A stretch of 34,282 nucleotides of DNA from Catajapyx aquilonaris (lineage: Eukaryota). The translations under genes and the position numbers were made by a program. This document shows positions 1 to 17,206 of the stretch, piece after piece. The stretch's first letter is position 1; each line of letters opens with the position of its first letter. The notes beneath the pieces are model-generated. The model had not been told where the DNA came from, made no database searches, and saw only the letters and a program-made list of their open reading frames with translations. The DNA is taken from positions 1 to 34,282 of the forward strand of contig JYFJ02004154.1 of assembly GCA_000934665.2 (NCBI GenBank), given 5' to 3'.

Positions 1-222
1 TCGGATCGGCACTGAAGCGGGAAAAACCAAACGAGCCCAAACGTTTACGCCCGATCCGCCGCCAGGTGGCAGGGCAAGCCATCTCCACGGTCCCTTAGTC
101 TGTTTTGAGCTCCCAAACAATGTGTGATGAAAAATAATGGATGCTTCTCCAAGTGTTCAATAATTGGTTATGTGATGTTTCATTGCAATTTTTACAGGTG
201 TCGATCATCCGCATTTTAGAAG

Positions 223-426
223 ATGGGAATATTGTGGAGCATGTGGGGTAGCAACAATGAAGAGGGCATCAGTAACAATGCGAAGCTTGAGTGCTGCATG
301 TCGTTGCACTGTACCAACACTACTGGAAGTACCAGCAATGCAAATGGTAAGGGTCATGGAGTAGTGAGTGATTCTAAATGCCAATTAATCCAATGTTCCT
401 GTGGATAATTTATTGATAATCATTTC

Positions 427-500
<74 letters not shown>

Positions 501-2347
501 CCGGGGTAGTGCTTGACCTCATCTGAGGTATGCAGCACGGACCTTGATTTATTACATCAAGTACATTTGAGCCTTTTTACGTAGCGCCCGGGCCCATGGG
601 CAGGATGACAGGAGGGGATGTGCAAGGTGCAGTGCAATGTCTTAATGTGGCCATTTTTAGTGAACTCCCCTGGGTGGTTTAGTATGTGGAAATACCACCC
701 GAGACGAAGCCAGAGGTGACCCTGAACTCTGCACGAGATGAAAGGGGGTGTCCCCGGGTTGGGATGGAACCCGGGACCTTAACATCCGTGGGCGCATACG
801 TTACCGCAGCACCACTCCGCCTCTCCTCATTTCATCATAATGATGGGCAGCAATGGTCGAGTCTTTCATCCTGATGCATTTTAGTTTTTGCATTATTTTG
901 CATTATTAATTACACTTACCTTGACATTTTGATTGACCCTGCTCTCTCCTGTGGGATGCTGGAAAGGGGAAAAAAATTCCAACAGGACCGGAGTCGTTTT
1001 GTAGGATTTTATTTCCCCCCCCNCCCCCCTTTCCAGCATCCCACAGGAGAGAGCAGGGTCAATCAAAATGCAGGACAGGACTGCAGAGCCATTTTGTTAT
1101 GCATTCGTAGATCAATAACCCTTGAAGCAGAGGTTATCAGCAGTAGCTAATTATTCACAAAAAAAGAGTAAGCGTAATCTTTCATCAAACATACTTTTTC
1201 AGATGAGAAAAAGAAGTTACAAGTGGAAACTTTCATTACAATAATAATTATAATTTTGCTCACATGAATGGTACATGAACCTGAAATGAGGGGAACGGGT
1301 TCTAATTTTTACAGAATGATGAGGTCTCTATGCAGAATGAAAATATGATAACAAGGTTGCAGATAAATTTAGGACAACTTTCTCTTCAAGGTACTGCATT
1401 TCTGCAAATTGTGAATTCAGTTACTTTTGCATGCCAGCATGTACTTCAGCCAAGTTCTGTGGTTAAAATAGGTGGAATTTAGTGTTTACCATATACATAC
1501 AATTGACTTCGGATATAACAGACTCTCAGTTATATCAGACTCGAAATGCTGGTAGGTTCTGCAATACTTCCATATAATTATGGCGTCTGTATATTTGGCT
1601 ATAACAAACCTCGGTTATAACAGACTGATTTTTGTGGTCTCTTATTGAAGTCCGTTATATTTGGAGTCTAATAACAATAGAGGCATGTCACAATGTACTG
1701 CTTTATCCACAGGCCATGATATTGCTCAGTATTCTGAGCATGAGCTTCACGGAGAAAGCAGCGAGCTGGAGCAGGAAATGGAATCTGCGAGGCAGTCATT
1801 TAAGAAAGTGTATGAGGATCTGATTTCATTGCTTAGTATGGAAATGAATTTTTTTGATAAGGCACTTGAAGTGTGCCAATGTTACTCCTCTGTGCATCTG
1901 AAAATCATATGGCTGAATAACATCTTATTCACTGAGGCTTTGAAACTGTTGAGGATTTACGGTGAGCTTGCACCTATGGATGCTAGGGTTAAGAAGCTAA
2001 TTGGAGAGTTACTGGAAAACCTAATAAGAAGCAAAATTATGCTAACAAGTGATGAGCAAGATCTCGACGTGCTGGTGACTGTCAGTGAGAAGGTGAAGAT
2101 GATCAGTGGACAAGTTTGTCAGATTTTTTCAAAGGAAACGACCAAGCAAAAGACAGCTAGTACAGAAGGTGTGATTGGAAGTAAGAGTGCAGTGGCACAT
2201 ATCTACTACAAAATGATAGTACATGTGAGGCGTATCAATCAACTTGTAGGACTATTGCCAGAGGCAAAAGCGAAGGTCTGGATGTGTAGGAAAGTGTTTG
2301 CTGACCTGAGAAGGGAGCTTGATGCCTTATTAGCGGCAGTTGAGTAG
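223..2347 (+). CDS. Orphan coiled-coil protein, paralog A (spliced: 223-346, optional 1203-1222 and 1315-1390, terminal exon 1713-2347)
   Basis: Exon 198-346 (tttacag| ... G|gtaagg) carries MGILWSMWGS...SNAN and ends in phase 1. Acceptor ttatccacag|GC at 1713 is phase 1 in the 1661-2347 ORF. The terminal exon encodes ~210 aa of heptad-rich helical sequence, with AATAAA at 2520. The optional internal exons keep the frame but one donor is weak. Confidence 0.65.
428..821 (-). mobile_element. tRNA-derived SINE with (TTA)n tail
   Basis: Minus strand starts GGCGGAGTGGTGCTGCGG (A-box-like) ... GGGTTCCATCCC (B-box-like), followed by a ~250 nt body and a (TTA)n tail (plus-strand AAT repeat 428-500). 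A possible TSD TCATTTCAT lies at ~420-428 and ~827-835. Confidence 0.7.
925..1070. mobile_element. MITE/foldback element with ~45-bp perfect terminal inverted repeats
   Basis: CATTTTGATTGACCCTGCTCTCTCCTGTGGGATGCTGGAAAGGGG at 925 is the reverse complement of CCCCTTTCCAGCATCCCACAGGAGAGAGCAGGGTCAATCAAAATG ending at 1070. Confidence 0.75.
1500..1673. mobile_element. Degenerate Tc1/pogo-type MITE
   Basis: TA-CAATTGACTTCGGATATAAC ... GTTATATTTGGAGTCTAAT forms an imperfect TIR with internal repeated (G/C)TATAAC motifs. A related copy lies at 18114-18243. Confidence 0.55.
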
Positions 2348-3901
2348 GTTTTTGCCTACTGGAGGATGTGATAAAAATGTGCACTTAGTTAAGAAGACCC
2401 TAGAAAATCATCAGAAAGGAGCAGTACTGGCTTATATCTGTATAAGGAAACACAGGCATAAATGGCAAATCCAAGAAATATTAGATGAATCCAATTAAAA
2501 TTGTTTGGCAGCCAGTTGCAATAAATGCAGATGCAAGTGATGTTTATTTCAATTCCACGTGTGTGAAATTAACCCCAAGAAATTCTAGAACATTTATGTA
2601 TAACATTCTTCACTTTCATGTTATGCAATACACAGTTCCTTGAAAGTATTTATTCAGTACCGTTAATGATGATAGTTCCGAGATTGAGAAATTGTGAGTA
2701 ATTCCAATGGTCAGTCAGTGTTCCATTATTTTACTCTGTAAGTGCAACACATGCACCCTATAATATTAACCAAAAATACTTGATGTAATGGCTGCTCTAT
2801 TGACCAAATAAATTTTTTGACAAGACCAGTTGTTAACCTTGTATAGTAAGCCAGTTTATGGCTCACAATCCTCACATAATAATGGAAACTTGTCTAGTAC
2901 AGAACATATTTTTTGTGATTTGTTCTCTGTTTTCAGTGTGTGTTGCATAGAACTGAAACTCTTGTTCATTGCAGCAGATTTTCTTGGAATTTGAGATAAT
3001 TTGCTACACCCAAGGATGAACAGTCTCATCGACAGCCAGTTGCAATAAATGCATGTACTTGAGATGTTTATTTGAATGTGTGAGATATTGACCCCTTGAA
3101 AATCAGTATGGTAGTTTCTTTGCTATCTTGGTTGCAAAATATTTATGAGAATTTTATACCATATACGATCGATATTCTATGAACAACCAATGTCTGTGTA
3201 CTTCCCCCAATTAATTCATTATAATCAAGAAAATGAGATCTTCATAATTATGCAGGGTTCCAATGGAGTGTTAGCAATTTAAGATGCAAATCTGCTTACT
3301 GTTAAGCTAGTTACTTGCAAGCAGGTACTTTTGGCAGTTATTAAAATGCCAGGTTGTTGTCAACTGATTGATTAAGTCCCTAAATTTGGATAATTTTGAG
3401 CTTAATCAATTGTAAACAATTCCCTTTGCCCTGGTGGGAACACCTGAAACGAATTTTCAAAATCTAAATCCTCCTGCAAACATTGCATTCATTCATTCTC
3501 AAGTACTATGATGTTAGTAGCTCTTATTTTAGAGAACCTATGAAAGTAAATGTAACATTATTGCTGAATAATTAACAACTTAGTGCAACAAGAACACTGA
3601 CATTTTCAATACAATCTTTTGTTTCTCATAGGTTAATGTTACCTACACATTGCCAACAAATGTCTCATGGTTGGAATAGACATGTACTTTGCCTAGACTG
3701 CTTGTCTTTTTGAACCGACTCAATTAAGGAAAGAGCATGAGCATCAGAACAATCCTTCATGATTTAAGCATCAGTTCTCATTACGTCTACATGCAAGTCC
3801 CTTCTGACATTCAAGAATCAAACACACTGGATCCTCATGTTATTGTCACTTTTATTCGGCATCACCTCGACAATAATACACGTTGGTGTCTGTACCAAAT
3901 G

Positions 3902-4862
3902 TTACATTGGTGCAGGTGCAGCTGGTGCTGGAGCCGTGCTGACATGAGCTCTGAACAGATAGTCCGAGTACTCCTGCAGAGGGCTCTTGAGCAAGGTAGT
4001 CTCCCTCCACAGATCAGGGGTCAGAAAGCTGTATGACTTGGCAATAGCAGCAAATGTAGCTTTGGCTGTGAAGTAAAGTTATTATGAAATAAACTTATGT
4101 TTCAACACATAAATCCATTGGGTAAATCACTATGTTTTCAGGCCCTTGTTTGGAGAGTGCTGAGAAATTATCTTACCAAAATTGCCCAAGGTGCCAGTGT
4201 TTCCTGAAGTGGACGTGTAGCAGTCCTCCACCCCTGCCATCTGCAACAGCTTCTTGGGCACAGGGGCTCCCACGATCCCAGTCCCCCTAGGTGCCGGGAT
4301 GAGGCGGACAATGACAGAGCCACATTTGGCTGACACCTTGCATGGCACGGTGTGTGGCTTCCCAATCTTGTTGCCCCAATAACCCTTCCGCACAGGCACA
4401 ACGGACAACTTGGCCAAAATGATGGCTCCCCGAATGGCTGTGGCCACCTCCTTGGAGCACTTCACTCCCAACCCAATGTGGCCATTGAAATCCCCCAGTG
4501 CTGCAAAGAAAGTGCTACGTTAAACCGATACTTCCCCAACACTAATAAAGGTCACAAGCTGTATGATATCCTAAACTAGATGTCCCAGCAGCTAGTGCAT
4601 CATAAGATACTTACCCACTATTGCTTTGAAGTGAGTCCTCTGCCCAGCTCGTGTCTGCTTCTGCACTGGCTGGATCTTCATAACCTCATCCTTCATCACC
4701 GAACCGAGGAAGAATTCAATAATCTCCGGTTCCTGCAACAACAACCAACATTTTTCAATTAGCTGTCAATTTTATGAGCTATCAATTTATTAGTTTATGC
4801 CAAAGCAACTACCGCTATCTCAAGCCATTATCCTCTACCAGCAGCACTACTGGTATGTAGAT

Positions 4863-4893
<31 letters not shown>

Positions 4894-4936
4894 TAGTAGT
4901 AGTGGTGGTGGTAGTAAATAGTAGTAGTAAATAGTC

Positions 4937-4976
<40 letters not shown>

Positions 4977-5295
4977 AATAGTAGTAGTAGTAGTGGTGGT
5001 GGTGGTAATAAATAGTCGTAGTAGTAAATAGTCAGTAGTAGTAGTAGTAGTAAATAGTCAGTAGTAGTAGTAGTGGTAGTAAATAGTAGTGGTAGTAGTA
5101 GTAGTGGTAGTAAATAGTAGTAGTAGTAATAATAGTAAGCAGTAGTAAATAGTAGTAGTAGTAATAATAGTAAGTAGTAGTAAATAGTAGTAGGAAATAG
5201 TTAGAATTAGTAGTAGCAGTAGTAGCAGGAGGAAGTAGTAGTAGTAGTAGTAGTAGGAAGTAGTAGCAGTAGTAGTAGTAGGAAGTAGTAGCAGC

Positions 5296-5327
<32 letters not shown>

Positions 5328-5724
5328 GAAGTAGTAGTAGTAGGAAGTAGTAGTAGTAGGAGGAGGAGGAGAAGGAGGAGGAGGAGAAGGAGGAGGAGGA
5401 GTAGTAGTAGTAGTAGTAGTAATTTCGAATAGGTGCAGATGACTGTACCTTGATGGGCAGGGAGTAGAGGTAGATCTCCTCGATGGACTTGATCTTCCCA
5501 TCCCGGACCAAGCGTCCCAGCTTGGTGACTGGGGTCCACTCCTTCTCCTCCTGCTTGCCTCGCCCCCTGCCCCTCATCCCTCTGCCCCTGCCCCTCGTCA
5601 TCCCTCTGCCCCTGGCTCCAAACCCGCCCCTGAAGCCACCGCGACCACCACCGGGGCCGCCGCCTTGGCCGCCGCCACGACCACCACCACCGCCGCCACG
5701 ACCACCACGACCAGCGTCTGCCAT
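3902..5724 (-). CDS. RPS2: 40S ribosomal protein S2 (uS5); coding exons 5724-5449, 4732-4615, 4500-4177, 4065-3902; ~293 aa
   Basis: RGG-rich N-terminus, then [97 protein letters not shown] and LTPDLW. All introns are GT-AG with consistent phases. Minus-strand AATAAA at 3851-3856. Confidence 0.97.
4863..5420. repeat. Compound (TAG)n/(TGG)n/(GAG)n microsatellite in an RPS2 intron
   Basis: Long imperfect trinucleotide array seen directly; it explains the poly-Y/L/T ORFs in the ORF track. Confidence 0.95.
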
Positions 5725-5889
5725 ACTACCCTTCTCTTGATTGTGTCGGACACCAACAATAACTGATGTACTATACCCTGCAACATAATATGAAACATAT
5801 GACTAATGGGTCCTTTCTATCCTGCCCTTGGGTCGGCCCCTGGTCTCTCCCCGGAGTGTGGATCGCCCCAGATGGGGACAGATACGAAC

Positions 5890-5928
5890 CTTAGAGACGA
5901 CGACGATGCGGAGAACGATGCGGAAGAG
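5890..5928 (-). promoter_or_regulatory. Putative TCT/5'TOP start and non-coding first exon of RPS2
   Basis: Minus strand CTCTTCCGCATCGTTCTCC...CTAAG|GTTCGT gives a pyrimidine-rich initiator followed by a donor. A matching acceptor ttgcag| at 5778 lies upstream of the ATG at 5724. Confidence 0.55.
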
Positions 5929-6710
5929 CTGGCTGTTAAAAAACCGTTGGTAAAAAAACCAGTGTGCCTCAAGGGGGTGACGTCAGATCCGGCGGATGTT
6001 ATGCTGCTGGCACACTTGCGTTTTTTGCGCATCCAAAATCGGAATGCATTTTATCTAATAAAATGTTCTAGGTACATATTTTTGAAAATAGCGATTGTAT
6101 GTGTATGAATTATGACAAATGAGATGGGCCCGAAAAGAAGGAAAAATAGGCCCTCCAGTTCCTAGCCTATTTAAAAATAGCAGACGTAATAGCTATACGG
6201 CGGCTATTAACGTTATGTTAAATGGAATTAACATATTATGGAAAATAAATTTATACATAAATTGCATTAGTTGGTCACTTCAATACATATAGAACATAAA
6301 TACAAGTACGTACATTATGAAAATAGCTACATAATGGTACGTACTGTACATACGAAAATACATACATTAAATACATGGTACATTAAATATATTTAAAATT
6401 AAATTCACCAAATAAATTAATAATAAAAGTTGATTATCCGCCGGCACCCCAGTCTTTTTTTGGGGGGGGAAAAGCCGCGATGAATATTGATGATTATTAT
6501 TAAGAATCGAAATAAATCATCATCACCATCCCCATCACTACATTTCCCTATAAGGGCAGCGATGACGCGTCGAAATAAATAAAATAAATAATCAAATAAA
6601 AATAACTAGATAAAATATAGAAATTAATAATATGCGTGCATGGCCCGGGTGTCCTTTTCAAACCAATGTAGCTGCTATCCTATTTCGTGAAAATAACGGT
6701 TACAAAACTG

Positions 6711-6721
6711 GCGCATGCGCA
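6711..6721. promoter_or_regulatory. NRF1/Erect-wing-like motif GCGCATGCGCA in a CpG-rich segment between divergently oriented genes
   Basis: Motif read directly in a GC-rich island upstream of paralog B and RPS2; function is inferred. Confidence 0.4.
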
Positions 6722-7259
6722 GTGTGGCGTCCCCCCAATTCGGACGCGCCCTTCCAACAACATGTGTTGCTGTGGTGCGCACGTGTTGTTGTTTTGTTGC
6801 CCAGCGATTGTTGTTGTTGTCACTCTGCATTGTTGCTGAGGGGGTTGGGCGGGTGTGCACTGCGTCGTTCGTTGTCGTCGTCTGGGTCTTGTTGGGCCTC
6901 TCCAGTGGTAGAAGGGGGCTTGGATATACAACAACAAAGATATATAGATAGCCCCCCAAAAGAAATATTCAAGTGGGGGTTTTTTATTTATATTTTTTAT
7001 TTTACATAATTACAAGGGAATCATCAGGTAACAACACTTTTGCTACAGGGCGACCCTGAAGTCCAGGGAACACATAGGTAAATTGTTGCTTGCGGATTGT
7101 CAGCCAACAAAATGCAATACTATATTTACTTATGTGTTACCTCTGCACTTTTGAGTCACCTTATGCCAACGATATAAAAATGATTGGTGTACAACATCGA
7201 GGTATTAATTGCTGTTTGTCTCATCCGTAGGATTCGTCGCTGTACCAGCATATGAGGTG

Positions 7260-8424
7260 ATGGAAGGTCCAGGAGTAGATGTCGGCATGACAAATTCCCA
7301 GAGTGGTAAGAATAACTGTTAATATGACTTCATTTGCAAAGATTGGTCCATAAAATTATGCTGTAATGTTCTTAGTAAATGTCCATGCATTATTTGTAAT
7401 GTTGGGACTAGCCCATATGGTACTCTGTTGCCATGGACAAACAAACAAGCGTTCCCTTATCTGTTGCTTAAACCATTGCCATGGACAAAGAGACAGAATT
7501 CCCCTTATCCGTTGGTTAATCCGTTGCCATGTGGTAACCTCTGTTTCTTGGAGATGTTCATGCCTTATTTATGTTGTTACTAGCCATGGACAAACAAACA
7601 AATTTTCCCTTATTATATCTGTTGCTTAAATCACTGCGTTAATCCATTGCCATGTAAATCCTGTTGACATGGACAAGCTATAACAAACTTTCTCCTTATA
7701 TGTTGCTTAATCCAGGGTAACCTGTTGCCATGGACAAACAAACTTTCCCTTAAGTCTATGTAAGATGTGATATTTCTTGCACGCCTTTATCTATAACCCA
7801 TCAGATATTGAAGGGAAAATGCTCCAGGAGAGCGTGAAGCTGCGAGCGACTCGGTCCGTGGTGGCGGCGGAGTGCTCGTACTTGCTGAACACAGTTTCAA
7901 GCCTCAGTAGCTTGAACCACGACCTGGACGTGGATATCTACATGCTGGAGGACGAGCGGAGACGACTGGAGGAGAGGATGGAGGCATGCAGGTTTGAGTG
8001 CGGCGTGGCGGTGGTGGACTACTGCGGCTTCTACATAAGGGAACGCGGTTTGAGCTGTGTCCCAGTGGAGCAGATGGGAGACGACCAGATTGAAGCTTTG
8101 GTCAGGAAGGAACTGGCTGGAGAATCTCCTGCTGGAGCGATGACCGCCAAGAGCCGCGTGTCGGCCGAGAAGACTGAGAGGACGCGAGCGGCCCTTCAAC
8201 GCTGGAAGAGGACCAGAGGTGAACACGACAGGGTAGCGGAGAAACTGGAGAGGAAGGTTGCGGTGCTCCAGCACATGATACATTGCAACTACAGCGAGAT
8301 CCGGTGGACAAACGAGGTCCTGGACGAGTACCGGAAGGTCCAGATCGAGATAAACAGGCTGCTGGAAGAAGAAGGACAAGAAGAAGGACAAGAAGAAGGA
8401 CAAGAAGAGGAGAATCACACCTGA
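7260..8424 (+). CDS. Orphan coiled-coil protein, paralog B (spliced: 7260-7305, terminal exon 7805-8424)
   Basis: Exon 7231-7305 (catccgtag| ... G|gtaaga) is phase 1 and joins acceptor cccatcag|AT at 7805 in frame, giving MEGPGVDVGMTNSQSDIEGKMLQES.... The exon is GC-rich and coding-like, ends in an acidic EEGQ-repeat tail, and has AATAAA at 8442. Confidence 0.7.
7425..7752. repeat. Degenerate minisatellite (TTGCCATGGACAAACAAAC..TTCCCTTATCTGTTGCTTAA units)
   Basis: About five imperfect copies in the intron of paralog B. Confidence 0.7.
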
Positions 8425-9144
8425 TGTTGTCATATGGATGGAATAAATTGTTTTGTTTTTTTATTTTAAAAGAATTTGAGATACTGGCTATAGCTGTTCC
8501 TTCATAGAATCGTAGCTGCTACGTTACCGACCCGGTTCGTCGTCTGGGGATTCGGACGCGGCCTGTCTTTTTTTCCTTTTTTTTTTGCTGCTTTGCACGT
8601 GTCCCGATTGGATTTCGTCCCGCTTCTGGCAGCGTATGTGGGACACCGTTGGACGGGGTTTTTTTTTTGAAGAGGAATCGCTGCAGGGTACTGCTGACGC
8701 ATGTAGTACATGCAGTGTTGCATCGGAAAGACTGATTGCAACGCACGCTGCTCCAGTTTGACTGGGTGTTGACAGCAACTGGTAAAAAAGGTGATTATTT
8801 ATTTTTAAAATGTGCAGTAATTGCAAAGAGTGTGATTTAAACAATGGTCACAATTGCAATCTTAACCAAATATGAACAGCCACCGACAGCCACACAGTGC
8901 AACAATGATTATACTGATGGATAGAAACCATTTCATTGTTGTTATGCATGTCTTCCTCCAGTTCTATGGCAGCTTCATTGTTGTGTGAAACATTTAACGT
9001 AAGAGATTTACTTGCTTGGATCACTATACAATAATTACATATGCAACCAGGACGGCTGACCAACCTGTTGGTTAATGTGGCAGCTTCATGCGCCTGATGT
9101 GTAATGTTGTTGCTCTGTTTCAGAGTCTGTATGAGCAACAGATC

Positions 9145-10781
9145 ATGGCCGAAGGAAGGGAAGCAAGCACCGCTGAAGGTACGATATACCAGCTGTGCTA
9201 TAGTAGGGGTGAGCTAACTTATGGGTTTTGGTGGGAGGTGGCTTGTGTCATTGGGAACCATAATTAGCCCCGCCCACTATACCGGTTGACCAATCAGAGG
9301 ATTCGATTTCAAAGGAGGTGGGCGTTATAACCTCAGGGATGAGATGAGTTTGTTTACACTTAGGCAGTTGGTAACCCAGCAGGTGGGAAATATTTCTCCA
9401 CTAATCGTTCTAAATTCCGTACAAAAAACTCAGCAGGGGGCGGGGCTAATTTGCCAGGGACACAAGCCACCTCCCAAAACCCATAAGTTAGCGTACCCCT
9501 ACTATAGCAATGGATAAATTTGCTGCGCTCTGTGGTACAAATAATTGCATACCACGACTGCTAACCACTGTTAAACGTGCTCACAGTGGAAGTAATCCAT
9601 TCCCTGACATGTTTCTTCAATTAAAATATTTCCATATGCTGTACTGGGCAGTATCAAACCAAGAGAAGGAATTGAGTGGAAAAAAAATTGGTTAAAATCA
9701 TAAGCATCAAAATGTCTGATCTTGTCGACTAGTCTCCAAGGCCACAATGCATCACGTCGGTGATCATGCAAAACCTCGTATATCTTCCATTGGTTTTTGC
9801 AGGAGATACGAGGTTTTGCATGATCACGACGACAGCTCTCTTTTTATAGCAGGGGTTAACTGCAGGTACTCCACTTACTAATACTACTACTTTATAGTAA
9901 TGCAAGCTTCTGTTACTAACATCTTGTCATCTGACGCTACCTTTGAGCATCATACAAAGGTGGCTGCCGCAGCTGCAGTCGACCCTCATAGGTATGTATG
10001 TCCATATGACACTTGAATTGCCAGTGACTCAGGGAGTGCCAAGTGCTTAGATTTTCTTCAAATTTGGTAGCTTAGTTTGCCTGCAGTAAAGTTATTTTTT
10101 GACCAATTTTGTGCATTTAATTTAAAGATTGACTACAGCATTACTTTCGTGCATGTAAAACCTTGCCTTGTGGTTACAGGACTGGGCCATGATGGATTGG
10201 TAGCGAAACTTGACTTTCTGTCGGATATGATCCCCAACATTGTCAAAAAGATGAAGATGGTGCACGGGCTGTACGTTTTGATGATAGAAGAAAACGAGCA
10301 CCTGAGAGCATGCATCAAGGACTTGCATGATGAGCTGCAGGAGTTAACGGATTTGTTAGACAGGCTGAAATTGGAGGCCCACGATCATCTGGGTGAATAC
10401 AACAAGCTGAGGATTCAAATCAATAAACTGATACAGCGGAAAATCAGGATGATGAAGGTACGAAACAGGTCGATGTATCACGGGACGCTGGATTGCACCG
10501 AAGACTTGGTGCATAGGAATAAGGAGCTGCTATCCAGGAAGGATGTGAGGATTGAAAAGGTCAATCGAGATTTGGCGGTGATCAAGAGAGCGGTGTTGGG
10601 AAGGACTAGGTCGGTCATGGTGATTCGGAGGATGATCACCGGGAAGGAAAAGGCAGTTGTCCATAACGAGGAGGTGATGAAAGATAACGTGGAAAAGGTG
10701 ATGGCGTACAAAACGGAGATGGAGCAACTCCTTAAGAAACTTAACGAGATCAGTCAGAGCAGCCCAGCCTTCACAGGATAA
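9145..10781 (+). CDS. Orphan coiled-coil protein, paralog C (candidate exons 9145-9178, 9850-9865, 9960-9991, terminal exon 10180-10781)
   Basis: Acceptor tggttacag|GA at 10180 is phase 1 in the 10077-10781 ORF. Upstream small exons with GT/AG join in frame (MAEGREASTAEAGVNCRWLPQLQSTLIGLGHDG...). An alternative ATG at 9131 is possible. The terminal exon encodes ~200 aa of heptad-rich sequence. Confidence 0.65.
9196..9509. mobile_element. MITE with long imperfect terminal inverted repeats
   Basis: TGCTATAGTAGGGGTGAGCTAACTTATGGGTTTTGG..GGAGGTGGCTTGTGTC pairs with GACACAAGCCACCTCCCAAAACCCATAAGTTAGCGTACCCCTACTATAGCA; the inner ATTAGCCCCGCCC pairs with GGGCGGGGCTAAT. Confidence 0.8.
9755..9831. 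repeat. Near-perfect ~77-nt hairpin (mini-foldback or pre-miRNA-like)
   Basis: CGTCG-GTGATCATGCAAAACCTCGTAT...loop...ATACGAGGTTTTGCATGATCAC-GACG. Confidence 0.7.
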
Positions 10782-11763
10782 GTCGGCTAATCTCGTCAAA
10801 CAGCCTTCGTGCATTTGAACTAAGTCATAACACCAGCTACCACAGAGATATTACGATCATACAGCTCTTATTTGTAGCCCTATAAAAATTGTGGTTGTTA
10901 TTGACAGTTTGCTAAAATTATTAATTTTAATTATGTTTGGAGAAACTGACTGATTCTTGCTGTATGAATTCAGGTGAATATATTCAGCTGTATTTTCACT
11001 TGAAGGCCATGTGCACTTGCCATTATTGTTGATGCATTTATCTGTAATGTATTCGAAATGTCTTTCTAGTCGAGCAATTGCTAGCTCATACATTTGTGCA
11101 AATAAGTTGAACATTTTCCGTTCGGAGTACTGTGCCATTGAGCTGTACGCAATGTCCAAAACTTGGCTGTGATTGACCAGCTGCATTTGTTCGAAACACT
11201 TCTTTGCAGTCCAATAAGAAATTTTAAATAGTTCCTATTGCTTTAAAGAGTGTTGGACCAAATATGCAATTAAAGGCTGTGGCTGTGACCTTTTTTTTAA
11301 AAATAAAAATTGTTTGTATCATTTTATTGAGGATATAGAGTAGTAATTGCGATTATGAGTTGTAACCATTTACGTCAAGTTTGTGATATGTTTTTAAGAC
11401 CAAATAAAGATCAACATGTCGATTTCCATTGGATAGTTTTTTTAATGATGTTTTGAGAATTTCTTTTTCCTAAGAAAAATCTTGACAATGTTTACAGCTT
11501 GCTTATTTGAACATGTGCCGTTAATTAGGAGCAGCATAATTATGTAGCTAGTGTCAAGAATGTCTATTATACTGTGTGTTTCATAATTTAGCTCCCATCT
11601 GCATCATTTTCATCGACATAAAGTGATGCAGAACTTTAATGTTGTTCGGAGAAGCGTTATAGAGAGCAAAAAAGACTAAAGGCTATTGACAGGCAAATGT
11701 ATGTAACTTTATTTTCACGTAAGGCTAATTAATTATACAAGTACGCAAATTTTGTGCTGCATC

Positions 11764-14700
11764 TTATCTTCCCTTCCTTCCCTTGGGCTTCCCCCCCGTC
11801 TTTGCCTTCTTTCCTTCCATTTTCGAGAGCATTCGGAAGACTCTCTTCTTCAGCTCCTTCCTCCTCTTCCACTGCTTCTCCTCGTTCTTTGCCAGCACTC
11901 TCTTGTGCTCCGCAGTCTTTTTCCTCGATGTCTCTCGCAGGTTAGCTTTCCTCTCCTTGTACGCAGTGTGGATCATCCTCATCATGTCCACAGCCTGTTC
12001 AAGAGACAGCACAAAATTAGCCTCAGCAAGCTAACATATTTACGCAATATTACAAGATTCGGCATTTACAAAACACTCGCATCATAAAATATGTGCTTTC
12101 AAACTACTACAGAACTAAACTGACCTTCTTTTCCTCTGGCTCCAAGACGACTGCCATTCTCTGATGTTCCAATGGCTTTGGCCCACCTTTTGCAACCAAC
12201 TTCGGCTTGTTCTTGTATGGAAGCTCCTTCTGAAGGGATCTGGGCACCACCAATGGTTTGAAAACCTTAGGTTTCCTCCGTATTTCCTGAAATGAGCATG
12301 ATTTCATTTAGAGTGAAGCGTCTTACCGCAAACGATCTATGAATGTTTGCTTACTCTGTACAGGCTGTCCTCGTCGGGCAGATTCTTGATGTTCTGCTCC
12401 CTCTTCAGCTGTCCCACTGTCTTCATCCCTTGCCACTGGTTCTTCTCCTCCAGTGGAAGCAGAAGGGAAGTGACTGGGTTGTAGTAATGTGGCACTTGGA
12501 TTTGGTACCAAGTTCGGCAAAACACAATATCTACAGAAGAAAAGACAAAACTTGATCTAGTATCGGTCCGACAATCGTTTCAGTACGTACTTACCGCTGA
12601 GAAGTATTTTATCCTCAAAAGTTGCCCGAAACGCTCCCTCAGGATTTTTCATGGCCCTCTTGACCTGCCCTCTGACCCCCGACACTGTCCTGATCTTTGC
12701 CCCCTCGAACTTGGCCACCTCTAGTTGCGAGGAAAACATGTCGCTAACAAATGCAGTCTTCTTGTAGATCTTGTACGGGTGGCCAACAAGCTTCAGCTTC
12801 TTGGTTATCTGCACAGATTTGTCCAGGTCCAGCACCGATCCGGTGGCTGCAATGCGGAAGTCAGCCTGCGGAAGCAAAGATTTCAGTCTCTTGATTTTGC
12901 TATATCGAAAATAATGCCAAGGTTTTTTTTCTGACCTGCGTGGAAGCGAGGCTCTGCACGGCTAATAACCCAGTCCCCTGAGGCGTGATTGGCCCCCAGA
13001 AATGAGCCATGCAATGCATGTGTTCAGGGGTATACTTGAGCAGACGGTTCCTTCCGTTGTGGTCTTGCACCGAATACAAGGGAATAGTCTGAAACCTCCG
13101 CCAACCCATGGATATTATCAGGGGATCACGTGTCTTTAAGATACGCTTGTGCCAACGATGCTTCTTTAGACGGACCTGAGAAGGAAAATTTAATAGTAAA
13201 CGCATTAATGCTACCAAGTGACATTTAAAAAAATAATGTAGCTAATAAAATTGCTGCAAAGCTTTCACTGTTACGCATATTCATAACTGATCTAATGCCG
13301 ATTGCACCACCCGAAAGGACTGATTCGATAGCTCGTAACAGATCGTTAGCAGATGTTAAAATGATCCATTAGGAGCAATCAGATCGGTAATTTCGGTTGG
13401 TGCAATCGGGCATAAGTGTAATAAGTAATTAATTTTCACTACTGAGGCAGCAATGTTAAACTGACCTGGATGTAACCTATGTTTTCCTCGCCATGCAAGA
13501 GTCCGCCACACAGCATAGGGTACGTAGGATCAAAGTTTTCAATGAGTTCGCATGGAACACGCTCGATCTCAATCCGAACGTACATCCCAGGGCGGTATCC
13601 CTCGTAGTGGACCCGAATTTCATCCTCCATGCCCTCGAACTCTCCGAGGTTGAGCTGGAAAAATTCATGTTAATGATCAAACTCTTGCGAATTATATCCT
13701 CGCTGAAAAGGTTTTCGGATCGAATGTCAAAATTCACCTTGGCCTGGGCGTCTACTTCTTGCTTGAGATCCGCATAAAAATTTTTCCCACCTTCCTGTTC
13801 ATCGTACTCCGCATTGAATAGAGCTTTGAGCCGCTTCTTCTTTTCCAGCTGCTTTTCGCGAGCAGTCAGCTTTGATTCGGGAGGTTTCGCCTCGTCTTTT
13901 TCGCCGTCCGGTGCGTCAGCTGTCAGAAAAAGCATGCTCTAATTGCATGCATACGAGCTAGAAAATCACTCACTCACCTTCTCCCTCTTCTTTCTCCTCC
14001 ACTTTTCCTTTCTTTTCTTTTTCACTGGGTTTCTCCTTGCCAATGTGAGTCTCTCCAGTCTCCAGATCCTCAAAGTCTCCATCTAGTTCGTCGTCGTCGT
14101 CGTCGTCTAATTTCAAAAGTTCCTCTGCATCTGCGGATTCTTTCCATTTGCCAGTCACAAAGCAATCTTTTATCAATTCTTGTGTCTGAAACAAGTTGAA
14201 TTAAAGCACAGTGAGATTAAAACAACTTTAAACCACAAGGAATAAAAATTAACCCTGGCGGGTCATTTCTATGGTTTGTATTGATCACTGCTTCCTACTA
14301 ATCCGTTACTGTTAAAAAACGTTTAACATTTAGACGCACCTCTTCACTCTCCCAGTCTTGCCGATGGGTCAGAACAAATCGAGAACAGTCAGATGCATTC
14401 ATTGTCGCTCTTTCTGTTTGCTGCCTTTCCTGCTCCTCCTGAACAACCTTGAACAGGCCTGCAACTTCTCCGTCACCTTCACTCTCGTCTTCATCTGATT
14501 CTACCCGCTTGGTACTGCCAACTGCAAAAATATGACAGTGAAAGCATGATATTGAATCGAGTTAACAGAAGCAGCTGTAAAATTACTTACGTTTCCCGTA
14601 AACCATCTTGACAATATTGGTTGTGGTTGCTTGTCTCTCGTAGAAAGCTGTCGATGCCTTCTTGGCCAAGTTTTCCTTCCATTTTAAGCCCGACTCGGCT

Positions 14701-17206
14701 CCGTTATTGGATTCCTCCTCGCTTTCCTCTTCATCACTTTCTTCCTGGCCACTGTCATTGCTGTCTTGCCCTTCACTCTCACTGTCATCATCTTCGCTCT
14801 CGGACAGTACATCCTTCTGTTCAGGCTTCGAGCAGGACATCTTTTCAAGCCTGGATAGAGTTAGGCTTATTTTTTCAGTGACTGACGATTTCTCTGTTGC
14901 TTTCAGCTCTTTCTTAGTAGGCTCCTGCTCCATTTCCTCTTCGCTCTCGCTGCTGTCTGACGCGCTCTGGTCTTTCGCATCATAAGGTTCGTCAACATCA
15001 GTCAACACAAGTTCATCTTCATCCTCTCCTAGGTAAGCTGCAATCGATACGTCAGGCTTCTTTGCCTTCCGTTCTGCTTGCGTAACTTTTTTGGCAGCGG
15101 CCAGCTCCATCTCAAGGTCATCATCGCTGTCGGCAAAAGCAAAGTCTTCGTCCTCCTGAAACAGAAATCGCAGTCATAAATTGCTCGAAATTCACCCACC
15201 TAAACACCAAGTTTTATTCTCTCATTGTTCTTTTTATAATCAATGTGAAGTTGTTTAGGATTTCAGACATGATAAATTTTAATCTTAAAAATTTGCACTG
15301 TTTCACTTGTACGAGGCCAATTCTTACCATTTTGAACTTTTTGGATGCCTTTGGAACATCAGGCGCAAGTTTCCTCTTCTTCTGAATGATTCCGCCGCCC
15401 CAGCCGCTCTGCTCTTCCTCCATTTCACTCTCAGCGTCCTGGTCACCTTCTTCGTCACCACTGGCGTTATCCTCGCCATTAATTTCTTCATCACCACTAC
15501 TTGCATCTTCGTCATCATCAGCATCAAACACAGCCTTCCTCCTCGTCCTTCCATTGTCATCCACAACCAGCTTTTCGGTGGGCATCTGCTTCATTTTGCT
15601 AGCAATTAAAAATCAAGTTGTAGGATCATCACAATTGCTTGCATCGACACTAACTTGAGGTTAAATTGGCCATACCTTTCTACATCCTCGGACGTAATTG
15701 GCTGCGAATGACTGAAAACCTGTAGCATACTTTTGGCAATCTTGCTGTCGACAGTTTCCACAGTGTCGATTATGTTGTCGGCCATTTCCTCTTCAATAGG
15801 CTTTTCTTGGTCCTGAAAAGTACGTAAATGCACACATGGTCGTAACAAAGTTAAAATATTGTTCTCTCCGCCCATTCCCACACCGTAAAGTAGCTAACCT
15901 GACGTTTATTGTGAGAGTGGCTCCCACCCAATTCGATGTAAACGGCATCCTTGTCGTACACAATCCCTCCAACCCCTGAAAACGGGGCGTAGATAACTCT
16001 CTCCTTATCCACCAGCGATCTCTTCTTCTTCCCTTGCGGAAGCGGACATGGATCAGGCAGGAAAGACACATCTGAAATCTTCAGATCTCCGCATCCTGAA
16101 AAGTATTTAAAAATTAGTACCAATAACTACAAATGTGCGAATGTGAACTAACCTGGGATATGCACACTCATGTTGTTCTTGAAGTGAATCCCTCTGACGT
16201 AACCGTACAGAGAAACATTCCTGTCACACTTTGGATTCTGTCGGATGTCTTCGGGCGATGTGAGGTCTTCAAATCGGTCGACTACGAAAATTACAATTAA
16301 ATATCGAACCTGCTATTGCGCTGCACACAACGAGTATTAATTTAACTTACCCAATACATATGGATGAGTGGTCCTCCACTGTACTGGCGGAAACTTCATG
16401 ACGGAGATGAATCTCCCCAAGTTGTGTGTCTCTTGCCTCAGATATTCGCCGTGGATCATTCCCGACAGATAGAACAGCTTGGCTCCCTGGTACACTTCAG
16501 TCCAGAACCTGTGCTTCAACCACTTTTTGGTCTGCTTCAGCAGCTTCTGCTTCTTAATCATGTCCAGATGTGTCAGCACACCCATTATCTTCGGAAACCC
16601 ATGCACCTGACATACATTCAGAAACTCAAACACTTCCATCTCGAATCCAAACGACGCATCGACAAGCAGGAGTACCAGATCCGCAACTTTGGCCAGATCT
16701 ATCATGCAGTTGATGTCATTGTTGCACTCGATAAAAGTGAGTCGCCTTTTCTTTCCGGACACGACGGTCACCGGTCCTTTAATGTTGGTCAGGTTCTGCC
16801 TCGTGAAGTTGCGTATAAGACACTGCATTAGGATGGACTTCCCAACTTTCGGGGGTCCCACGATAACAATGACGGCCGGTGGCGGCTCCAGAGGCGTCCT
16901 GTCCACTGTCGGAAGTCTGGTCCTCTTTGCTTTGATGTCCTGTGCCCTTCGGAACTGCCTCTCGGCCCTGACCACGGACTGAAAAGTGAAGGCCTTGGGA
17001 TTCCTCTCCCTTGCCGACTGAGGCTGTGCTTCAGGCTGGCCATCTTTGTTCTTAGCCTTCTTCTTCTCAGCTTTGCGACCTGAAAATTAAAATTTGTGGT
17101 AAACAGTACTCGTACACAATCTAACTACACTGCTCAGCACTTCACCTGCCGACTTCTTCCTATGCTTCTTGTTTTCCCGGATGAAATCCTTCTCGTCGTC
17201 AGGCAT
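11764..17206 (-). CDS. BMS1: Ribosome biogenesis GTPase BMS1; 16 coding exons (17206-17146, 17079-16351, 16281-16153, 16095-15899, 15812-15676, 15598-15328, 15155-14591, 14521-14340, 14185-13978, 13919-13738, 13654-13466, 13175-12936, 12865-12595, 12530-12355, 12286-12125, 11994-11764)
   Basis: [21 protein letters not shown]-loop [45 protein letters not shown], acidic middle region, [62 protein letters not shown]. Introns are canonical; minus-strand AATAAA at ~11708-11713. Confidence 0.97.
13296..13412. mobile_element. PIF/Harbinger (Tourist-like) MITE in a BMS1 intron
   Basis: TIR TGCCGATTGCACCACCCGAAA / TTTCGGTTGGTGCAATCGGGCA, flanked by TAA at 13293-13295 and 13413-13415 (3-bp TSD). Confidence 0.8.

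What the first reader, a model, noticed from the sequence alone, without database searches (positions are those of the whole stretch)
223..10781. Hidden family of three highly divergent orphan coiled-coil genes with shared motifs and exon architecture
Seen in sequence: three + strand genes each have short 5' exons ending in phase 1 and one ~600-nt terminal exon encoding ~200-210 helical residues. They look unrelated at first but align without gaps in two blocks. N-block: A ELHGESSELEQEMESARQSFKKVYEDL, B MLEDERRRLEERMEACRFECGVAVVDY, C DLHDELQELTDLLDRLKLEAHDHLGEY. B and C extend this to N-x2-L-x3-I-x2-L-x-DE...[DE]Y-x4-I. C-block: A KVWMCRKVFADLRRELD, B VLDEYRKVQIEINRLLE, C KVMAYKTEMEQLLKKLN. 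I recognise no known family. Inference: an old, fast-evolving tandem family of helical-hairpin proteins, possibly co-polymerising subunits such as germline, sperm or synaptonemal structural proteins, or membrane-remodelling or pore-forming helical bundles.
Basis: partly seen in the sequence, partly recalled or inferred. Interest (0 to 1): 0.8.

Follow-up and report, generated by a model that had tools for sequence, protein, structure and literature searches.

The report
Three neighbouring orphan coiled-coil genes
Three neighbouring genes in an arthropod-type genome encode helical proteins with no known relatives, but the motifs said to unite them into one family are no better than what any two coiled-coil proteins share.

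Summary
The three + strand reading frames are real and look like coding exons: 1713-2347, 7805-8424 and 10180-10781. Each follows an AG acceptor in phase 1, and each encodes about 200-211 strongly helical residues. Codon statistics support them, and ORFs this long are rare in shuffled sequence.

No search found a relative for any of them: Pfam, PDB sequences, the 5.8-billion-cluster protein search, 1.84 billion representatives (C only), the ESM Atlas (A, B), and viral and metagenome DNA.

- The quoted blocks score 3-24 (BLOSUM62), at or below the best segments in shuffled sequences (about 26-27).
- A-B and A-C are indistinguishable from shuffles.
- In A the two blocks lie on different diagonals from B and C.
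- The full-length gapless B/C register looks significant only until heptad periodicity is preserved in the null; then 1062-1330 of 3000 shuffles match it.
- The one excess signal is an 18-residue B/C motif (12 of 3000 shuffles), and it sits at different positions in the two proteins.

A common origin of B and C stays plausible from architecture. A's membership is unsupported. Function is untested: no RNA run was listed and the complex predictor was unavailable. The scan's earlier notes hold nothing similar.

The parts
223..346 (+). Gene A, candidate ATG exon (41 codons plus 1 base, ends in phase 1). It follows an AG at 196-197.
   Evidence: donor TGGTAAGG at 347 matches 6 of 8 positions, and the frame is open from the ATG at 223. 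Sequence read. There is no RNA evidence, and the coding statistic is uninformative at this length.
1713..2347 (+). Gene A, terminal exon: 211 residues, stop at 2345-2347. All-alpha, with one long heptad run (residues about 15-90) followed by shorter helices.
   Evidence: acceptor; codon LLR +0.083 only in this frame; periodicity z 6.2; Pro/Gly at 84, 88, 98, 133, 153, 156, 180, 183.
7231..7305 (+). Gene B, candidate ATG exon. Coding starts at 7260 (MEGPGVDVGMTNSQS plus 1 base, phase 1).
   Evidence: donor TGGTAAGA at 7306, 6 of 8 positions. Sequence read. There is no RNA evidence.
7805..8424 (+). Gene B, terminal exon: 206 residues, net charge -13, (EEGQ)x3 tail, AATAAA at 8442.
   Evidence: LLR +0.091 only in this frame. 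AlphaFold single sequence, pLDDT 67, pTM 0.40, helices 2-81, 93-104 and 121-203. Searches give generic coiled-coil hairpin matches only. Net charge.
9124..9178 (+). Gene C, candidate ATG exon. Coding starts at 9145 (MAEGREASTAE plus 1 base, phase 1). An alternative in-frame ATG lies at 9088.
   Evidence: donor AGGTACGA at 9179, 6 of 8 positions. Sequence read. There is no RNA evidence.
10180..10781 (+). Gene C, terminal exon: 200 residues, net charge +7.
   Evidence: LLR +0.223 only in this frame; pLDDT 65, pTM 0.24, helices 4-98 and 104-194. Periodicity z 4.9. Net charge.
8320..8373 (+). B residues 173-190 (LDEYRKVQIEINRLLEEE). This is the only segment with above-chance similarity to another of the three proteins.
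   Evidence: best ungapped segment scores 49, reached by 12 of 3000 global shuffles and 14 of 3000 heptad-class shuffles.
10389..10442 (+). C residues 71-88 (LGEYNKLRIQINKLIQRK), the partner of the B motif. It lies about 102 residues earlier in its protein than the B copy does.
4130..5730 (-). Context: ribosomal protein uS5/RPS2 gene lying between A and B on the opposite strand.
   Evidence: Ribosomal_S5 N-terminal domain E 9e-14, C-terminal domain E 5e-16 on 4133-4519. ORFs.
11764..17086 (-). Context: BMS1/TSR1-type ribosome-biogenesis GTPase gene downstream of C, on the opposite strand.
   Evidence: RIBIOP_C E 1.4e-37 on 12560-12961; Tsr1 G-like domain on 16340-17086. ORFs.

Best explanation
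The region holds three separate, real, lineage-restricted protein-coding genes in the same orientation, set among housekeeping genes (RPS2 between A and B, BMS1 after C).

Each probably has a short ATG exon and one terminal exon of about 600-635 nt. Each encodes a soluble protein of about 210-250 residues with no signal peptide or membrane segment, built from long amphipathic, heptad-patterned helices. B, and probably C, consists of two helices of 80-95 residues that can fold back into an antiparallel coiled-coil hairpin. A has one long helix followed by shorter ones.

The 'shared motifs' are what any two heptad-patterned helices give when slid into the same heptad phase. They do not show a three-member family. 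At most B and C are old duplicates. A shows no detectable relation to either.

Inferred, not shown: like other small coiled-coil proteins, they most likely act by oligomerising through their helices, as structural or adaptor subunits of a larger assembly rather than as enzymes.
For: GENES ARE REAL.
- ORF length is far beyond shuffles, and codon statistics are positive only in the claimed frames.
- The codon-position GC pattern resembles the RPS2 and BMS1 exons.
- Canonical AG acceptors precede all three exons, and B has AATAAA 18 nt after its stop.

HELICAL.
- Periodicity z is 2.6-6.2.
- AlphaFold gives two long helices each for C and B.
- B's model matches only generic antiparallel coiled-coil hairpins: Foldseek best E 0.085; VIA top Z 10.8-10.4 for the dynein stalk, an SMC arm and similar, below the roughly 13 that the tool says helical models reach by arrangement alone.

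ORPHAN STATUS.
- No Pfam hit reaches E < 0.05 or any gathering score.
- 0 hits for A, B and C in the word-indexed protein search.
- For C, 1 hit in 1.84 billion representatives. It is a bacterial LPXTG Ig-repeat surface protein whose E-value comes from summing about 14 weak repeat matches.
- Best PDB sequence match is E 0.08.
- Atlas scores are 0.80 and 0.85, below the 0.9 lead level.

NO DEMONSTRABLE FAMILY.
- BLASTP gives A-B E 1.2 and A-C E 5.2.
- Smith-Waterman against 500 shuffles gives z 0.0 and -0.1.
- Best ungapped segments are reached by 910 of 3000 (A-B) and 579 of 3000 (A-C) shuffles.
- Among the 15 comparisons of protein halves, only B2-C1 stands out.
- The collinear B-C diagonal is matched by 1062-1330 of 3000 shuffles that keep local heptad classes.
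- No DNA repeat links the three loci.
- A differs from B and C in GC3 (0.46 against 0.70 and 0.67) and in CpG o/e (0.39 against 0.86 and 0.79).
Against: ARCHITECTURAL COINCIDENCES FAVOUR COMMON ORIGIN.
- The genes share strand and neighbourhood, the same phase-1 acceptor, terminal exons of 635, 620 and 602 nt, and an all-alpha heptad make-up.
- The heptad register steps by the same +2 between the first and second long heptad runs in all three: A 1 to 3, B 2 to 4, C 3 to 5. This is post hoc, and the a/d register is ambiguous.

RESIDUAL B-C SIGNALS.
- The B-C motif is reached by only 12-14 of 3000 shuffles.
- The pre-named +1 diagonal keeps a residual excess under the strict null, reached by 113-119 of 3000 shuffles.

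ACCEPTOR REGIONS.
- Within 30 nt either side of the acceptors, A-B and A-C DNA alignments are reached by 17 and 21 of 2000 shuffles. This is post hoc, and it fades to 79 and 174 of 2000 at 60 nt either side.

LIMITS OF THE EVIDENCE.
- Coiled-coil proteins are known to keep length and coiled-coil layout while losing sequence similarity (PMC8598163, abstract read). Failure of sequence tests therefore does not exclude homology.
- Gene models and expression are unverified.
- Orphan status may partly reflect sparse sampling of this organism's relatives in the libraries.
Confidence: 0.5

Rival explanations
1. One reading: A, B and C, or at least B and C, are an old tandem-duplicated family. Its sequence has decayed past detection, but it has kept intron phase, exon length, heptad layout and a helical-hairpin fold, and the members co-assemble.
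For: - Same strand, phase-1 acceptors, and terminal exons of 635, 620 and 602 nt.
- All are strongly helical.
- The same +2 heptad-register step occurs in all three.
- The B-C motif is reached by 12 of 3000 shuffles.
- B(i)-C(i+1) is the best of 81 diagonals, with 27 identities in 199 residues.
- The acceptor regions show small DNA similarities.
- B is acidic (-13) and C is basic (+7), as complementary partners could be.
- There is a precedent for conservation of length and layout without sequence, in synaptonemal-complex proteins (PMC8598163, abstract read).
Against: - A-B and A-C are at shuffle level in every test.
- The B-C diagonal excess is explained by heptad phase. The top diagonals are mostly congruent to 1 mod 7, and 1062-1330 of 3000 local heptad shuffles match it.
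- The only significant motif is off-register by about 102 residues, which contradicts the collinear alignment. The halves show no internal repeat (B1-B2 z -0.8, C1-C2 z -0.6).
- The predicted tertiary arrangements differ: B is a packed hairpin at pTM 0.40, C is extended at pTM 0.24. Both are low confidence.
- A differs in composition from B and C.
Confidence: 0.3
2. One transcription unit starts near 223, and the three exons of about 600 nt are mutually exclusive alternative terminal exons. RPS2 would be nested in an intron. The shared phase 1 would then be a splicing requirement, not a sign of ancestry.
For: The donor at 347 ends in phase 1. All three acceptors accept phase 1, so each join would be in frame. 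Each terminal exon has its own stop, and a poly(A) signal candidate lies downstream of each.
Against: - B and C each have their own ATG exon candidate.
- CpG-rich, promoter-like zones lie upstream of B and C, at 5850-6900 and 8400-8850.
- An RPS2 gene with its own CpG-rich 5' end lies in between.
- No RNA data support either view.
Confidence: 0.05
3. One or more of the ORFs is not a functional host gene. It could be a decaying pseudogene, a transposon-borne or virus-derived ORF, or a translated-looking part of a non-coding RNA.
For: No homologue was found anywhere. No RNA run was listed. MITE-like inverted repeats lie in the presumed introns. The 5' exons have no measurable coding signal.
Against: - The ORFs are intact at 200-211 codons, with a host-like codon bias in one frame only.
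- There are no transposase, reverse-transcriptase or viral Pfam domains.
- No relatives were found in viral contigs.
- The ORFs are not repeated within the window.
Confidence: 0.05

Closest known systems
Generic long antiparallel coiled-coil hairpins: dynein stalk (PDB 5ayh_A), SMC arm segments (5xg2_A), RipA N-terminal domain (6ewy, 9hmx_A)
   Same: B's model aligns with them as two helices of about 80 residues packed antiparallel. VIA gives Z 10.6 (rmsd 1.8, 132 aligned) for 5ayh_A and Z 10.4 for 5xg2_A. Foldseek gives TM 0.50-0.58 for RipA.
   Different: Sequence identity is 10-17 %, with no significant E-value (best 0.085). The Z scores are below the level that helical models reach by arrangement alone. 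The matched proteins are domains of large motors or enzymes, whereas B is a free-standing protein of about 220 residues. C's model does not even pack as a hairpin.
Synaptonemal-complex proteins with 'unconventional conservation' (Kursel, Cope and Rog 2021, PMC8598163; abstract read)
   Same: These are coiled-coil proteins whose length and coiled-coil layout persist while sequence diverges beyond recognition. That is the mode of evolution the family hypothesis needs. One row of C's VIA list is SYCE2-TEX12 (6r17_A, Z 7.4, residues 103-195).
   Different: That row is a single-helix match, tied with dozens of unrelated coiled coils. There is no sequence or profile link and no expression data. Nothing here ties A, B or C to meiosis.
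Taxonomically restricted (orphan) genes of arthropods, often short, with few exons, and helical or disordered (general knowledge, recalled; no paper read for this)
   Same: No detectable homologue in very large libraries, a simple two-coding-exon structure, a helical product, and clustering near one another.
   Different: The origin cannot be told here. Both a de novo origin and a fast-diverged duplicate remain possible, because no related genome could be searched.

Membership tests
   A-B and A-C fail: BLASTP E 1.2 and 5.2; Smith-Waterman z 0.0 and -0.1; best segments reached by 910 and 579 of 3000 shuffles. B-C has only one 18-residue motif, reached by 12-14 of 3000 shuffles.
   Block scores are 24/14/23 and 13/13/3, against a shuffle best of about 26-27. 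A's blocks sit at offsets +36 and -16 relative to B. The B-C +1 diagonal is matched by 1062-1330 of 3000 local heptad shuffles when taken as the best of 81 diagonals, and by 113-119 of 3000 as a fixed diagonal.
   The phase-1 AG acceptors and the exon lengths of 635, 620 and 602 nt are in the sequence. ATG exon candidates exist for all three, but they are unverified: no RNA run was listed and there is no coding signal at that length.
   B is a hairpin-like model (pTM 0.40). C is two long helices that are not packed (pTM 0.24). In both cases only 1 of 5 models exceeds pLDDT 60.
Named Pfam coiled-coil families seen at noise level (HAUS-augmin3 PF14932, Snapin_Pallidin PF14712, CENP-F_leu_zip PF10473, Mod_r PF07200) | Score at or above the family's gathering threshold | tested here: not met
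   the best is 14.1 bits against a cut-off of 34.5. All E-values are at least 0.05.
LINES (PF14694/PF14695), an Atlas lead for A | Pfam profile match, or an Atlas score of 0.9 or more | tested here: not met
   The Atlas score is 0.80 with 145 shared features; the tool says a third of shuffled proteins reach 0.8. No LINES row appears in the Pfam scan at E up to 10.
Transposon-borne or virus-derived ORFs | Transposase, RT, integrase or viral domains; relatives in viral sequence; multiple genomic copies | tested here: inconclusive
   No such Pfam domain was found. No relative was found in viral contigs for A, B or C. BFVD's best match is E 0.017, a generic helix match. No second copy lies in the window. 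Genome-wide copy number could not be tested because no genome is held.
Synaptonemal-complex central-element type proteins | Profile membership or meiosis-specific expression | not testable with these tools
   There is no sequence link. Only a tied single-helix structural row was seen (6r17_A, Z 7.4). No expression data could be obtained.

The most novel reading that the evidence does not exclude
B and C, possibly with A, are survivors of an ancient tandem duplication that has kept only intron phase, protein length and heptad register. This would be the 'unconventional conservation' described for synaptonemal-complex proteins. The acidic B and the basic C would then pair through their long helices into a heteromeric antiparallel coiled-coil assembly specific to this arthropod lineage, for example in the germline or in sperm.
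Probability: 0.15. Interest if true: 0.5.

Novelty: new member of a known kind. Interest (0 to 1): 0.2.

Why it matters
As it stands, this adds three unannotated-looking, lineage-restricted coiled-coil genes to an arthropod genome. It also gives a cautionary example: motifs that look shared between coiled-coil proteins vanish once heptad periodicity is kept in the null model.

If the family reading were later proven with orthologue profiles, it would be a small further case of proteins that conserve length and coiled-coil layout but not sequence. It would also give a candidate heteromeric structural pair to test. On the present evidence neither outcome would surprise a specialist.

Tried and rejected
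DATA THAT COULD NOT BE OBTAINED.
- Whole genome: none is held, so copy number and further paralogues could not be checked.

HOMOLOGUE AND FOLD SEARCHES THAT FOUND NOTHING.
- The search for homologous proteins for C, A and B.
- Representatives search for C: a single false positive.
- Atlas for A and B: scores 0.80 and 0.85.
- PDB phmmer: best E 0.08, an apolipoprotein E helix bundle, for B.
- Metagenome contigs for B and C, and viral contigs for A, B and C.
- Exact look-up of the three Met-start ORFs.
- Foldseek PDB gave 0 rows for C and nothing at E 0.001 or better for B. BFVD gave nothing at E 0.001 or better. VIA wide gave only generic coiled-coil rows.

EARLIER SCAN NOTES.
- Nothing near, no look-alike stretch, and no sequence match. 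The word search returned only prokaryotic cases.

IDEAS DROPPED.
- An RFX X-box in B's intron repeats: GTTGCCATGG occurs twice, but the X-box consensus gives 3 matches against 2.6 expected, and none lies there.
- Using CpG depletion to infer breadth of expression: BMS1, a housekeeping gene, is not depleted, so the inference does not hold in this window.
- The minus-strand ORF 10857-11234 as a fourth member: it has no coding signal.
- A MAFFT alignment of the three acceptor regions was uninformative.
- Rfam found nothing in the window.

TECHNICAL. One search timed out and was rerun. One search had a frame slip, corrected.

Full report
WHAT IS THERE. The window is eukaryotic. Earlier notes on the same genome call it an arthropod, and I did not test that. 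No whole genome is held for it.

Each contains a canonical pyrimidine-tract AG acceptor, at 1711-1712, 7803-7804 and 10178-10179. This gives terminal exons 1713-2347, 7805-8424 and 10180-10781, all entered in phase 1.

Between A and B, on the other strand, lies the ribosomal protein uS5/RPS2 gene. After C, also on the other strand, lies a BMS1/TSR1-type GTPase gene.

ARE THE ORFS GENES? Four ORFs of at least 200 residues occur in 1-12000: the three here plus an RPS2/repeat read-through. Only 6 of 200 block shuffles contain any.

I built a codon table from the RPS2 and BMS1 exons of the window. It gives a positive log-likelihood only in the claimed frame of each ORF (+0.083, +0.091 and +0.223 bits per codon). 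The five other frames range from -0.33 to -0.86.

GC1 exceeds GC2, and GC3 is raised (0.46, 0.70, 0.67) over flanks of 0.34-0.43 GC, as in the known exons. B has AATAAA 18 nt after its stop. I take the terminal exons as real coding exons.

The 5' exons are weaker. Each gene has one ATG-bearing candidate that ends in phase 1 with a donor matching 6 of 8 consensus positions: A 223-346, B 7260-7305, C 9088 or 9145-9178. They are too short for a coding signal. No RNA run was listed, so the shared architecture is seen in the sequence but is not verified.

WHAT THE PROTEINS LOOK LIKE. Hydrophobic 3.5-residue periodicity is far above shuffles: z 6.2 for A, 2.6 for B and 4.9 for C.

- C: single-sequence AlphaFold gives helices 4-98 and 104-194 (pLDDT 65, pTM 0.24). 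The model is extended and matches only single long helices.
- B: helices 2-81, 93-104 and 121-203 (pLDDT 67, pTM 0.40). The model packs as an antiparallel hairpin and matches only generic coiled-coil hairpins. Foldseek's best is E 0.085, the RipA N-terminal domain. VIA gives Z 10.8-10.4 for axonemal coiled coils, the dynein stalk and an SMC arm, below the roughly 13 the tool quotes for helical models by arrangement alone.
- In both cases only one of the five models exceeded pLDDT 60.
Its proline and glycine positions and heptad tracks indicate one long helix (to about residue 84) followed by several shorter ones.

None of the candidate N-termini looks like a signal peptide, and there is no membrane-length hydrophobic run (sequence read directly). 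Net charges are A -3, B -13 and C +7.

ORPHAN STATUS.
- Pfam gives nothing below E 0.05, and nothing near a gathering score.
- The word-indexed search of 5.8 billion clusters gives no hit for A, B or C.
- The exhaustive HMMER search of 1.84 billion representatives with C gives one hit. It is a bacterial LPXTG Ig-repeat surface protein whose E-value arises from summing about 14 weak matches to one repeated segment, so it is a false positive.
- PDB sequences give nothing better than E 0.08.
- Atlas scores are 0.80 (A, LINES lead, not backed by Pfam) and 0.85 (B, unnamed). Both are below the tool's lead level.
- No relatives were found in metagenome contigs (B, C) or viral contigs (A, B, C).
- The Met-start ORFs are not in the protein collection.

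How well this organism's relatives are represented in those libraries could not be calibrated. Here 'orphan' means 'no detectable relative in these libraries'.

THE FAMILY CLAIM. The six quoted blocks are present, but their BLOSUM62 scores do not stand out. The N-blocks score 24 (A-B), 14 (A-C) and 23 (B-C). The C-blocks score 13, 13 and 3. The best equally long segment found anywhere between one protein and a shuffled partner averages 26-27, sd 3.4-4.6.

In A the two blocks sit at offsets +36 and -16 relative to B, so A is not on one register with B and C.

A-B and A-C fail every test:
- BLASTP gives E 1.2 and 5.2.
- Smith-Waterman gives z 0.0 and -0.1 against global, windowed and heptad-class shuffles.
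- The best ungapped segments are reached by 910 and 579 of 3000 shuffles.
- Semi-global scores are reached by 203 and 50 of 500 shuffles.

B-C needed more care. Only 12 of 2000 global shuffles reach it.

However, four of the five top diagonals are congruent to 1 mod 7. The signal is therefore mostly two coiled coils sliding into a common heptad phase. When residues are shuffled only within heptad classes inside blocks of 49 or 98 residues, 1062-1330 of 3000 shuffles reach the observed best-of-81 score. At the fixed +1 diagonal, 113-119 of 3000 reach it.

One segment remains above chance: B 173-190 (LDEYRKVQIEINRLLEEE) against C 71-88 (LGEYNKLRIQINKLIQRK).
- BLASTP gives E 0.006.
- The ungapped score of 49 is reached by 12 of 3000 global and 14 of 3000 heptad-class shuffles.
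- It is the only standout among the 15 half-against-half comparisons.
- It lies about 102 residues out of register, contradicting the collinear alignment.
- Neither protein shows an internal repeat that would explain the displacement.

WHAT STILL SPEAKS FOR COMMON ORIGIN.
- Same strand, same acceptor phase, and terminal exons within 5 % of one length.
- The first and second long heptad runs differ by the same +2 register step in all three: A 1 to 3, B 2 to 4, C 3 to 5. This is post hoc, and the a/d register is ambiguous.
- Small DNA similarities lie at the acceptors: A-B reached by 17 of 2000 shuffles and A-C by 21 of 2000 within 30 nt either side, fading at 60 nt.
- Coiled-coil proteins such as synaptonemal-complex components are known to keep length and coiled-coil layout while losing sequence (PMC8598163, abstract read).

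Against this, A differs from B and C in GC3 and in CpG o/e, and no DNA repeat links the loci. I put a three-member family at about 0.3 and a B-C pair alone somewhat higher.

MECHANISM. Shown: soluble, all-alpha, heptad-patterned products. Inferred: they work by helix-helix oligomerisation, as structural or adaptor subunits. The opposite net charges of B and C would suit a heteromer, but the complex predictor was unavailable. Nothing links them to meiosis, sperm, membranes or pores.

VERDICT. The genes are real and currently orphan. The 'hidden family with shared motifs' is not demonstrated, and its sequence evidence is coiled-coil background. Interest is low. The decisive data are RNA junctions and orthologue profiles from related genomes.

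Noticed in passing
window 4830-5440: The RPS2/uS5 gene (minus strand) carries an intron of about 600 nt made almost wholly of degenerate trinucleotide repeats (AGT/GGT/AGG units on the + strand). This creates spurious ORFs of up to 256 aa.
   Followed up: no
window 925-1070: A perfect 45-nt inverted repeat (925-969 / 1026-1070), MITE-like, lies in the presumed intron of gene A and flanks the single N of the region.
   Followed up: no
window 9196-9509 and 9760-9827: Two more inverted-repeat elements lie in the presumed intron of gene C: 43-nt arms at 88 % and 30-nt arms at 90 %. They are probably small transposon remnants.
   Followed up: no
window 7419-7743: Four loosely spaced copies of a unit of about 28-48 nt (TTGCCATGGACAAACAAAC...) lie in the intron before B's terminal exon. 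GTTGCCATGG occurs twice against 0.09 expected. It is not an RFX X-box by consensus.
   Followed up: partly
window 8365-8410: B ends in a 12-nt repeat (GAAGAAGGACAA x3) encoding EEGQ three times. This coding microsatellite may vary in length between individuals.
   Followed up: no
window 5850-6900 and 8400-8850: These are CpG-rich zones (o/e 1.0-1.7) in an otherwise CpG-poor stretch. The first lies between the RPS2 5' end and gene B and contains the palindrome GCGCATGCGC at 6711-6720, which I recall as an NRF-1-type site. The second lies upstream of gene C. Both are likely promoters.
   Followed up: partly
window 1200-5400 versus 7800-10800: The A locus and the 3' part of RPS2 form a CpG-depleted block (o/e 0.1-0.5; A exon 0.39). 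The B and C exons are not depleted (0.86 and 0.79). BMS1 exons range from 0.55 to 1.17.
   Followed up: partly
window 10857-11234 (minus strand): A 125-aa ORF lies between gene C and the BMS1 3' end. It has no coding signal (LLR -0.24, flat GC1-3) and no Pfam hit, so it is probably BMS1 3' UTR or intergenic DNA.
   Followed up: yes
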